Source: Escherichia coli | GTDB lineage: Bacteria > Pseudomonadota > Gammaproteobacteria > Enterobacterales > Enterobacteriaceae | NCBI RefSeq assembly: GCF_045037415.1 | Contig: NZ_CP173438.1 | Direction: 5' to 3' (one strand) | Length of the DNA: 64,000 nt | Part shown: positions 48,393 through 49,096 of the stretch, piece by piece | How the letters are laid out: each line of letters begins with the position of its first letter | Position numbering within the stretch: position 1 is the first letter of the stretch | Position numbers and translations under genes: made by a program | The notes under the pieces: model-generated | The model's input: the letters and a program-made list of their open reading frames with translations, nothing else | Database searches by the model: none | Told to the model about the DNA's origin: nothing

Positions 48393-48468
48393 TGGTGGGT
48401 CGTGCAGGATTCGAACCTGCGACCAATTGATTAAAAGTCAACTGCTCTACCAACTGAGCTAACGACCC
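48393..48468 (-). tRNA. lysQ: tRNA-Lys (anticodon UUU)
   Basis: 76-nt match to the E. coli tRNA-Lys sequence (GGGTCGTTAGCTCAGTTGGTAGAGCAGTTGACTTTTAATCAATTGGTCGCAGGTTCGAATCCTGCACGACCCACCA) on the minus strand; gene name by array position. Confidence 0.9.
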
Positions 48469-48501
48469 CTTGCGGGATTATGCTGCTTTAATCATTCAGG
48501 A

Positions 48502-48577
48502 TGGTGGGTCGTGCAGGATTCGAACCTGCGACCAATTGATTAAAAGTCAACTGCTCTACCAACTGAGCTAACGACCC
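48502..48577 (-). tRNA. lysZ: tRNA-Lys (anticodon UUU)
   Basis: Identical tRNA-Lys copy; gene name by position. Confidence 0.9.
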
Positions 48578-48625
48578 ATACGGGTGTTACCTGAAAGATT
48601 TCTACTCGGAACCAATGTTTAAAAT

Positions 48626-48701
48626 TGGTGGGTCGTGCAGGATTCGAACCTGCGACCAATTGATTAAAAGTCAACTGCTCTACCAACTGAGCTAACGACC
48701 C
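48626..48701 (-). tRNA. lysY: tRNA-Lys (anticodon UUU)
   Basis: Identical tRNA-Lys copy; gene name by position. Confidence 0.9.
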
Positions 48702-48704
48702 GAG

Positions 48705-48780
48705 TGGTGGGTGATGACGGGATCGAACCGCCGACCCCCTCCTTGTAAGGGAGGTGCTCTCCCAGCTGAGCTAATCACCC
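48705..48780 (-). tRNA. valZ: tRNA-Val (anticodon UAC)
   Basis: Minus-strand GGGTGATTAGCTCAGCTGGGAGAGCACCTCCCTTACAAGGAGGGGGTCGGCGGTTCGATCCCGTCATCACCCACCA. Confidence 0.9.
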
Positions 48781-48831
48781 GATACTGCGCTGGATACTAC
48801 AAACTACTTCCACCGAACCCACCGTAATCAG

Positions 48832-48907
48832 TGGTGGGTCGTGCAGGATTCGAACCTGCGACCAATTGATTAAAAGTCAACTGCTCTACCAACTGAGCTA
48901 ACGACCC
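48832..48907 (-). tRNA. lysW: tRNA-Lys (anticodon UUU)
   Basis: Identical tRNA-Lys copy; gene name by position. Confidence 0.9.
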
Positions 48908-48909
48908 GG

Positions 48910-48985
48910 TGGTGGGTGATGACGGGATCGAACCGCCGACCCCCTCCTTGTAAGGGAGGTGCTCTCCCAGCTGAGCTAATCACCC
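48910..48985 (-). tRNA. valT: tRNA-Val (anticodon UAC)
   Basis: Identical tRNA-Val copy; gene name by position. Confidence 0.9.
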
Positions 48986-49020
48986 GATACTACGCTGGAT
49001 ACTACAACTAACTATGTTAG

Positions 49021-49096
49021 TGGTGGGTCGTGCAGGATTCGAACCTGCGACCAATTGATTAAAAGTCAACTGCTCTACCAACTGAGCTAACGACCC
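49021..49096 (-). tRNA. lysT: tRNA-Lys (anticodon UUU)
   Basis: Identical tRNA-Lys copy; first gene of the array on the minus strand. Confidence 0.9.

What the first reader, a model, noticed from the sequence alone, without database searches (positions are those of the whole stretch)
48393..49096. Seven-gene tRNA array (5 Lys-UUU, 2 Val-UAC) with no element integrated
All seven tRNAs are full length with 3' CCA encoded and are separated by short spacers; a strong terminator follows the last gene. tRNA genes are frequent integration sites for genomic islands, but none of these copies is duplicated or truncated and no integrase is nearby. The near-identical 76-bp units are simply tRNA genes, not a CRISPR array.
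Basis: partly seen in the sequence, partly recalled or inferred. Interest (0 to 1): 0.2.

Follow-up and report, generated by a model that had tools for sequence, protein, structure and literature searches.

The report
Ordinary E. coli lysine/valine tRNA operon
This is the well-known E. coli lysT operon, seven intact tRNA genes supplying most of the cell's lysine tRNA; nothing is integrated in it, and it differs from the K-12 laboratory strain only in lacking the five small "RtT" repeats K-12 carries after each lysine tRNA gene.

Summary
Seven full-length, CCA-encoding tRNA genes lie at 48393..49096, all on the minus strand. [quoted passage not shown] The window is E. coli and differs from strain SK1144 at 6 of 64,000 bases.

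The five Lys genes are identical to each other, as are the two Val genes, and all match K-12. A conserved promoter lies upstream and a hairpin plus T7 terminator follows the last gene. The window has no orphan tRNA 3' ends, and no integrase, transposase or phage gene is annotated in its 64 kb, so "no element integrated" holds.

The suggested K-12 comparison adds one point. K-12 spacers are 135/2/149/3/146/132 bp; the window's are 35/2/51/3/48/33 bp. K-12 carries an RtT-family insert (Rfam RF00391) after every Lys gene, each ending in an 18-nt copy of the tRNA-Lys 3' end. The window has none.

About 20% of complete E. coli genomes share this RtT-free layout, including CFT073 and 536. RtT occupancy is mosaic across Enterobacteriaceae. 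The operon and the repeat family are both already known, so interest is low.

The parts
49219..49252 (-). Perfect hairpin directly after the cpoB stop codon (ACACGACCAGAAG-TCGCATTA-TTTCTGGTCGTGT). It marks the end of the tol-pal-cpoB unit upstream of the tRNA operon.
   Evidence: Sequence and RNAfold of the cpoB-lysT intergenic region; partly conserved across genera. Its role as a terminator or attenuator is inferred.
49138..49183 (-). Inferred lysT promoter: A/T-rich UP-like tract AAATTTTTG (49183..49175), -35 TTGCGC (49174..49169), 16-nt spacer, -10 TAATAT (49152..49147) and G+C-rich discriminator GCCGCCG (49144..49138). The predicted start is near 49140, giving a leader of about 44 nt.
   Evidence: Coordinates. 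These blocks are the best-conserved part of the intergenic region in 78 syntenic loci from many Enterobacteriaceae genera. The region is identical to K-12, where the lysT promoter drives one transcript of all seven genes (PMC4176162). The generic promoter scan found nothing because the -35 matches only 3 of 6 consensus positions. The start site was not mapped here.
49021..49096 (-). tRNA-Lys(UUU), equivalent to lysT. Its 3' 18 nt (49038..49021) is the site where K-12 has an RtT insert; here it is unoccupied.
48910..48985 (-). tRNA-Val(UAC), equivalent to valT, followed by the 2-nt spacer CC.
   Evidence: The CC spacer matches K-12 as described in PMC4176162.
48832..48907 (-). tRNA-Lys(UUU), equivalent to lysW; RtT slot empty.
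48705..48780 (-). tRNA-Val(UAC), equivalent to valZ, followed by the 3-nt spacer CTC.
   Evidence: The CUC spacer matches K-12.
48626..48701 (-). tRNA-Lys(UUU), equivalent to lysY; RtT slot empty.
48502..48577 (-). tRNA-Lys(UUU), equivalent to lysZ; RtT slot empty.
48393..48468 (-). tRNA-Lys(UUU), equivalent to lysQ and the last gene; RtT slot empty. In K-12 a 156-bp insert here also duplicates the terminator.
48362..48388 (-). Rho-independent terminator of the operon: A6-GCGCC-CTAAA-GGCG-T7. It is symmetric, so it could also terminate + strand transcription.
   Evidence: RNAfold gives -18.7 kcal/mol; coordinates; the + strand version was detected. It aligns with the K-12 lysT terminator with 2 substitutions. 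In K-12 the terminator is inferred to be removed by RNase P, by analogy with the identical valU terminator where this was shown (PMC4176162).

Best explanation
[quoted passage not shown] A single sigma-70 promoter lies about 50 nt upstream of lysT. Its A/T-rich upstream tract and G+C-rich discriminator are typical of growth-rate and stringently controlled stable-RNA promoters. It should produce one polycistronic precursor of about 780 nt, ending at the hairpin plus U7 terminator after lysQ. By analogy with K-12, RNase P first removes the terminator. It then cuts at each tRNA 5' end, working from 3' to 5', with RNase E playing a minor role in the longer spacers, and exonucleases trim back to the encoded CCA. 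The operon supplies five identical tRNA-Lys(UUU) and two identical tRNA-Val(UAC). In K-12 that is 5 of the 6 Lys-UUU genes, and the unit is essential there. This copy is the short-spacer, RtT-free allele. It lacks the five RtT-family inserts, each ending in an 18-nt tRNA-Lys 3'-end duplication, that K-12 carries. Nothing is integrated in or beside the array. Shown here: gene identity, integrity, synteny, promoter and terminator sequence conservation, and absence of RtT or att duplications. Inferred from K-12 experiments: the single transcript, the processing order and essentiality.
For: Seven tRNAs with high covariance scores. The window is 100% identical over 1301 bp to many E. coli chromosomes annotated cpoB | tRNA-Lys x5 | tRNA-Val x2 | nadA. 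The whole 64 kb is collinear with strain SK1144 with 6 mismatches. Gene order is tolQRA-tolB-pal-cpoB-array-nadA-pnuC, as in K-12. The tRNA sequences, promoter region and the CC and CTC spacers are identical to K-12. The promoter blocks are conserved in 78 loci. The terminator folds at -18.7 kcal/mol. K-12 experiments show a single transcript and RNase P-dependent 3'-to-5' processing (PMC4176162). The unit is essential in K-12 and holds 5 of 6 UUU anticodon genes (PMC11480407). There is no RtT hit at E<=1, no orphan tRNA ends and no RtT core. The same layout occurs in CFT073 and in about 20% of complete E. coli genomes (12 of 60 evenly spaced rows).
Against: No result contradicts it. The transcription start, single-transcript status and processing order were not measured in an RtT-free strain. 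The K-12 work used an array with ~100-nt longer spacers, which include the regions where RNase E cleavage was inferred, so processing details could differ. The generic promoter scan found no site in 48000-49500, and the promoter call rests on conservation and identity with K-12.
Confidence: 0.95

Rival explanations
1. The RtT-free array is a derived state. The lineage once carried RtT inserts like K-12 and lost each one precisely, by recombination or replication slippage between the tRNA-Lys 3' end and its 18-nt duplicate.
For: Each K-12 insert is bounded by an exact 18-nt direct repeat, and removing one repeat plus the insert body gives exactly the window sequence. RtT-family inserts occupy equivalent slots in Salmonella, Citrobacter, Klebsiella, Enterobacter, Kluyvera and Raoultella, which suggests the elements are old at this locus. 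Occupancy is mosaic within E. coli.
Against: E. albertii (L007) has none. The Escherichia sp. MOD1-EC7003 locus (L005) shows a single RtT core and orphan Lys 3' end (not checked with Rfam). RtT-free arrays also occur in several other genera, so the empty state could equally be ancestral in Escherichia, with gains in other E. coli lineages. No tree-based reconstruction was done.
Confidence: 0.4
2. The tRNA array is the attachment site of a genomic island or prophage lying just outside the stated coordinates.
For: tRNA 3' ends are common integration sites (general knowledge). RtT inserts in other strains show that the tRNA-Lys 3' end at this locus can carry insertions.
Against: No partial tRNA-Lys or tRNA-Val 3' end exists anywhere in the 64 kb. 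The flanking genes are the core genes cpoB and nadA at the same distances as in CFT073. No integrase, transposase or phage gene is annotated in the whole window of the near-identical strain.
Confidence: 0.01
3. The seven genes are expressed as several independent transcription units (four, as EcoCyc listed at the time, according to PMC4176162) rather than as one operon.
For: According to Agrawal et al., EcoCyc listed four separate transcripts for the K-12 cluster (PMC4176162).
Against: The same paper detected a full-length transcript of more than 1100 nt that hybridised to both the 5' leader and terminator probes. In the window the spacers are only 2-51 nt, too short for a full promoter with an upstream element, and the promoter scan found no candidate.
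Confidence: 0.04
4. The near-identical 76-bp units form a CRISPR-like or other non-tRNA repeat array.
For: None beyond the presence of regularly spaced repeats.
Against: Each unit is a complete tRNA by covariance model and by ARAGORN. Spacers range from 2 to 51 nt. There are two unit types. RefSeq annotates the units as tRNA genes in identical genomes.
Confidence: 0

Closest known systems
[quoted passage not shown]
   Same: Gene number, order, anticodons and tRNA sequences are the same. So are the promoter region and leader, the 2-nt CC and 3-nt CTC spacers, and the flanking genes cpoB and nadA. The terminator hairpin differs by 2 substitutions.
   Different: Four spacers are 98-100 bp shorter (35/51/48/33 against 135/149/146/132) and the lysQ-nadA gap is 155 bp shorter. 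The window lacks the five RtT inserts and the duplicated terminator of K-12. The predicted precursor is about 780 nt, against more than 1100 nt in K-12.
lysT operon of E. coli CFT073, 536 and APEC IMT5155
   Same: In CFT073 the architecture is identical: spacers 35/2/51/3/48/33 and 277 bp to nadA. Strains 536 and IMT5155 give single-piece matches of 99.8-99.9% over the whole array.
   Different: None of significance. CFT073 cpoB is annotated as frameshifted, whereas it is intact in the window.
RtT RNA family (Rfam RF00391; rtT/rttR of the tyrT operon)
   Same: It is the family to which the K-12 inserts missing from the window belong (46.7-60 bits against a gathering score of 45). It also occupies Lys slots in other genera.
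   Different: It is absent from the window: no hit at the gathering threshold in 64 kb or at E<=1 in 48000-49400.
valU-valX-valY-lysV operon of E. coli
   Same: It encodes identical tRNA-Val(UAC) and tRNA-Lys(UUU), has a short Val-Lys spacer, an identical terminator and the same RNase P-dependent processing in K-12 (PMC4176162).
   Different: It is at a different locus with a different gene order and only one Lys gene. It is not in the window.

Membership tests
tRNA (Rfam RF00005) | Cloverleaf sequence and structure scoring above the curated threshold | tested here: met
   79.2 bits (five Lys) and 65.9 bits (two Val) against a gathering score of 29. ARAGORN calls all seven with anticodons ttt or tac at position 34.
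tRNA (Rfam RF00005) | Full length with intact acceptor stem and encoded 3' CCA, as is typical of E. coli tRNA genes | tested here: met
   All are 76 nt, begin GGGT... and end ...CACCA; they are identical to K-12 lysT and valT.
E. coli lysT tRNA operon | Gene order Lys-Val-Lys-Val-Lys-Lys-Lys on one strand | tested here: met
   (minus strand); same order as K-12 b0743-b0749.
E. coli lysT tRNA operon | Position between cpoB (ybgF) and nadA, downstream of tol-pal | tested here: met
   the same synteny is seen across Enterobacteriaceae.
E. coli lysT tRNA operon | Single upstream promoter and a Rho-independent terminator after the last gene | tested here: met
   The promoter region is identical to K-12 and conserved in 78 loci. 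The terminator lies at 48388..48362, -18.7 kcal/mol. Tested at sequence level only.
E. coli lysT tRNA operon | Transcribed as one precursor and processed by RNase P from 3' to 5' | not testable with these tools
   Shown for K-12 in PMC4176162; inferred for this allele.
E. coli lysT tRNA operon | K-12 spacer lengths (135/2/149/3/146/132). This describes the reference allele and is not a requirement for membership. | tested here: not met
   The window has 35/2/51/3/48/33. The difference is explained by absence of the RtT inserts. CFT073 and about 20% of E. coli genomes share the short form.
RtT RNA (Rfam RF00391) | Covariance-model match at or above 45 bits next to a tRNA gene | tested here: not met
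   No RtT match in the window at gathering score or at E<=1. Positive controls: five hits in K-12 and 26 hits in other loci.
RtT RNA (Rfam RF00391) | Insert ends in a duplicate of the 3' end of the adjacent tRNA | tested here: not met
   There are only five copies of ATCCTGCACGACCCACCA in 64 kb, all inside the Lys genes. K-12 has five additional orphan copies.
tRNA-targeted integrative element (genomic island or prophage) | Tyrosine or serine integrase gene adjacent to the tRNA | tested here: not met
   The annotation of a genome differing at 6 of 64,000 positions lists no integrase, transposase or phage gene in the window. The immediate neighbours are cpoB and nadA.
tRNA-targeted integrative element (genomic island or prophage) | Direct repeat of the tRNA 3' end (attL/attR) bounding foreign DNA | tested here: not met
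   no orphan 3' ends, allowing up to 3 mismatches.
CRISPR array | Short (about 28-37 bp) identical repeats separated by unique spacers of similar length, usually with cas genes | tested here: not met
   The repeat units are 76-nt tRNAs of two kinds, spacers are 2-51 nt, and no cas genes are annotated.

The most novel reading that the evidence does not exclude
The window offers five naturally empty target sites for RtT-family inserts. Slot-by-slot presence or absence of these ~100-bp units, each ending in an 18-nt tRNA-Lys 3'-end duplication, is mosaic within E. coli and across Enterobacteriaceae. This leaves open that RtT units are small non-autonomous mobile elements that insert site-specifically at tRNA-Lys 3' ends, rather than passive repeats spread and lost only by homologous recombination. 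If so, natural RtT-free strains (this one, CFT073) and RtT-full strains (K-12) would be ready-made comparators for testing what RtT RNA does.
Probability: 0.12. Interest if true: 0.45.

Novelty: already known. Interest (0 to 1): 0.1.

Why it matters
The one practical point is for annotation and comparative work. K-12 is not representative at this locus. Its spacers carry five RtT-family repeats that roughly a fifth of complete E. coli genomes, including this one, lack entirely. Spacer-length differences from K-12 should therefore not be read as deletions or assembly errors. Processing details worked out in K-12, especially cleavage within the long spacers, may not transfer unchanged to this allele.

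Tried and rejected
(1) The generic promoter and terminator scan found no promoter, because the -35 TTGCGC matches only 3 of 6 consensus positions. It reported the terminator hairpin only on the + strand. I replaced it with cross-genus conservation, identity to K-12 and RNAfold.

(2) The permissive Rfam search gave sub-threshold hits to YrlA (44 against 69 bits, spanning part of lysZ, the spacer and part of lysQ), Plastid-ycf2 (antisense of each tRNA), tmRNA_permuted and CcsR1. All are well below their gathering scores and overlap the tRNAs or resemble them, so I rejected them as artefacts.

(3) Literature searches for RtT were swamped by Rett syndrome and other 'RTT' terms. Only one preprint mentions rttR. 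Background on RtT therefore rests on the Rfam family and RefSeq annotation, plus my own recollection of Bösl & Kersten 1991, which I did not read here.

(4) I considered counting occupancy of each of the five slots across all 5,426 genomes using junction-specific queries. I did not do it, because the search tool joins nearby pieces into one place and would not separate empty from occupied slots. I used an evenly spaced sample and four sampled strains instead. The ~20% figure is an estimate. The '1059 genomes without a match' is an upper bound, because the 80-nt query would miss a lone lysQ-type RtT.

(5) The genomic-island and CRISPR readings were tested and rejected (see rival explanations).

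(6) Whether the empty state is ancestral or derived could not be resolved from the 80 outgroup loci.

Full report
**1. Observation**

They are at 48393-48468, 48502-48577 and 48626-48701 (Lys, anticodon ttt), 48705-48780 (Val, tac), 48832-48907 (Lys), 48910-48985 (Val) and 49021-49096 (Lys). All are on the minus strand.

The Rfam tRNA covariance model scores every Lys copy at 79.2 bits and every Val copy at 65.9 bits, against a gathering score of 29. None is a pseudogene and chance is excluded. Extracted on the minus strand, the five Lys genes are identical to each other, the two Val genes are identical to each other, and all end in CACCA.

In transcription order the array reads Lys-35-Val-2-Lys-51-Val-3-Lys-48-Lys-33-Lys, where the numbers are spacer lengths in nt.

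**2. Identity and context**

A 1301-bp query around the array is 100% identical to many E. coli chromosomes. There the features are annotated cpoB, tRNA-Lys x5, tRNA-Val x2 and nadA.

The whole 64-kb window is collinear with E. coli SK1144 (NZ_AP018784.2, 3286198-3350197) and differs at only six positions. That record's annotation therefore applies. The neighbourhood reads ...cydAB-ybgE-ybgC-tolQRA-tolB-pal-cpoB | seven tRNAs | nadA-pnuC-zitB-ybgS-aroG-gpmA-gal.... No integrase, transposase or phage gene is annotated anywhere in the window.

**3. Test of "no element integrated"**

Allowing up to three mismatches, the last 18 nt of tRNA-Lys occur five times in the window and the last 20 nt of tRNA-Val occur twice. 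All of these lie inside the intact genes. There is therefore no attachment-site duplication and no truncated copy. Together with the gene content, this rejects the island or prophage reading. It is also not a CRISPR array: the repeat units are complete tRNAs of two kinds and the spacers range from 2 to 51 nt.

**4.

The alignment (A1) shows that the promoter region, leader, all seven tRNAs and the short CC and CTC spacers are identical to K-12.

| Interval | Window | K-12 |
|---|---|---|
| lysT–valT | 35 bp | 135 bp |
| valT–lysW | 2 bp | 2 bp |
| lysW–valZ | 51 bp | 149 bp |
| valZ–lysY | 3 bp | 3 bp |
| lysY–lysZ | 48 bp | 146 bp |
| lysZ–lysQ | 33 bp | 132 bp |
| lysQ–nadA | 277 bp | 432 bp |

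(K-12 values.)

- **K-12 inserts:** K-12 has an extra 98-100 bp immediately after the CCA of lysT, lysW, lysY and lysZ, and an extra 156 bp after lysQ.
- **Target duplication:** every insert ends in a copy of the last 18 nt of tRNA-Lys (ATCCTGCACGACCCACCA). The lysQ insert also duplicates the terminator.
- **Family:** Rfam assigns all five K-12 inserts to the RtT family (RF00391), at 46.7-60 bits against a gathering score of 45. RefSeq annotates an "RtT sRNA" in K-12-type arrays.
- **The window:** it has no RtT match at the gathering threshold or at E<=1, and no copy of the RtT core motif.

So the window carries the RtT-free, short-spacer allele.

**5. How common the allele is**

- An 80-nt RtT insert from K-12 matches 4367 of 5426 complete E. 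coli genomes, with a median of 4 places per genome.
- In an evenly spaced sample of the ranking for the window's array, 12 of 60 rows are single-piece, full-length matches at 99% identity or better. This suggests about 20% of genomes share the window's layout. They include 536 and APEC IMT5155.
- CFT073 has exactly the same spacers.
- Other strains are intermediate. O157:H7 has six genes and one RtT, 042 has four RtTs, and EC6563 has three.

**6. Outgroups**

Eighty syntenic loci were fetched through CpoB. The cpoB-linked Lys/Val array is conserved across Enterobacteriaceae. Each Lys-downstream slot is either short (14-64 bp) or long (about 98-199 bp, usually with an orphan Lys 3' end and the RtT core), in a mosaic pattern.

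Rfam confirms that the long spacers are RtT-family in Salmonella, Klebsiella, Raoultella, Kluyvera, Enterobacter and Superficieibacter. It also confirms that E. albertii, Citrobacter braakii, Leclercia sp., Kluyvera intermedia and CFT073 have none. Kluyvera intermedia has a seven-gene layout with spacers 25/2/52/3/43/32.

Whether the empty state is ancestral or results from precise loss between the 18-nt direct repeats cannot be decided from these data.

**7. Mechanism**

Upstream of lysT, the blocks best conserved across 78 loci are:
- an A/T-rich tract, AAATTTTTG (49183..49175);
- a -35 TTGCGC (49174..49169);
- a 16-nt spacer;
- a -10 TAATAT (49152..49147);
- a G+C-rich discriminator, GCCGCCG (49144..49138).

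This is the usual arrangement of a stable-RNA promoter. That reading is inference from established knowledge of rRNA and tRNA promoters.

After lysQ lies A6-GCGCC-CTAAA-GGCG-T7 (48388..48362), folding at -18.7 kcal/mol. The predicted primary transcript is about 780 nt.

For K-12, Agrawal, Mohanty and Kushner showed that the lysT promoter gives one transcript of more than 1100 nt containing all seven tRNAs. [quoted passage not shown] Removal of the lysT terminator by RNase P was presumed in that paper from the identical valU terminator (PMC4176162).

A systematic deletion study found this transcription unit essential in K-12. It holds 5 of the 6 Lys-UUU genes, and lysV alone does not suffice (PMC11480407). 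I infer that the same holds here. The shorter spacers may reduce the contribution of RNase E, but this was not tested.

**8. Verdict**

The feature is an already known, ordinary and essential tRNA operon. The only addition is that it is the RtT-free allelic form, itself common. Interest is low.

Noticed in passing
window 22939..22953 (-), between ybhB (22372..22848) and ybhC (23000..24283): The exact phage lambda attB core GCTTTTTTATACTAA is present once and is unoccupied: ybhB and ybhC are 151 bp apart and no prophage lies between gal and bio.
   Followed up: partly
window 58238..61170 (cydA-mngB interval); TPR gene 59780..60973 (-): The window has about 2.9 kb between cydA and mngB, where K-12 has 846 bp. 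The interval contains a 397-aa tetratricopeptide-repeat protein gene and 1.5 kb with no annotated gene (58238..59779). The full segment is present in 1104 of 5425 complete E. coli genomes. That is about the same ~20% share as the RtT-free lysT allele, so both may mark one lineage.
   Followed up: partly
window 50023..50161 (-): Full-length match to the Rfam CpoB/ybgF intercistronic RNA thermometer (RF02782, 153.7 bits against 51) at the pal-cpoB junction. It is conserved in all 15 outgroup loci scanned.
   Followed up: no
window 13379..13523 (-): Molybdenum cofactor riboswitch (RF01055, 103.4 bits against 36) upstream of moaA, also annotated in the matching RefSeq record.
   Followed up: no
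L002 (K-12) 2631-2730, 2920-3017, 3224-3321, 3446-3544, 3654-3809; also L006, L011, L023, L026 and others: RtT-family inserts sit directly 3' of the tRNA-Lys CCA and end in an 18-nt copy of the tRNA 3' end. Occupancy of individual slots is mosaic within E. coli and within other genera. By eye, the insert bodies contain small GNA-loop hairpins (GCCC-GWA-GGGC; GC-GAA-GC or GAC-GAA-GTC), and one K-12 pair differs by a compensatory A:T addition. Whether they spread by recombination or by insertion is open.
   Followed up: partly
L085 (CFT073) 1719-2511: cpoB is annotated as frameshifted (a pseudogene) in the CFT073 RefSeq record, whereas the window's cpoB is an intact 263-aa ORF.
   Followed up: no
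E. coli plasmid NZ_CP098226.1, 20408-20599: A 50-kb E. coli plasmid carries tRNA-Val and tRNA-Lys genes matching this array at 98%. Fifteen such places on plasmids were counted overall.
   Followed up: no
window 18345, 19058, 28767, 45022, 47892, 62378: These are the only six differences between the window and E. coli SK1144 over 64 kb; none lies in the tRNA array.
   Followed up: no
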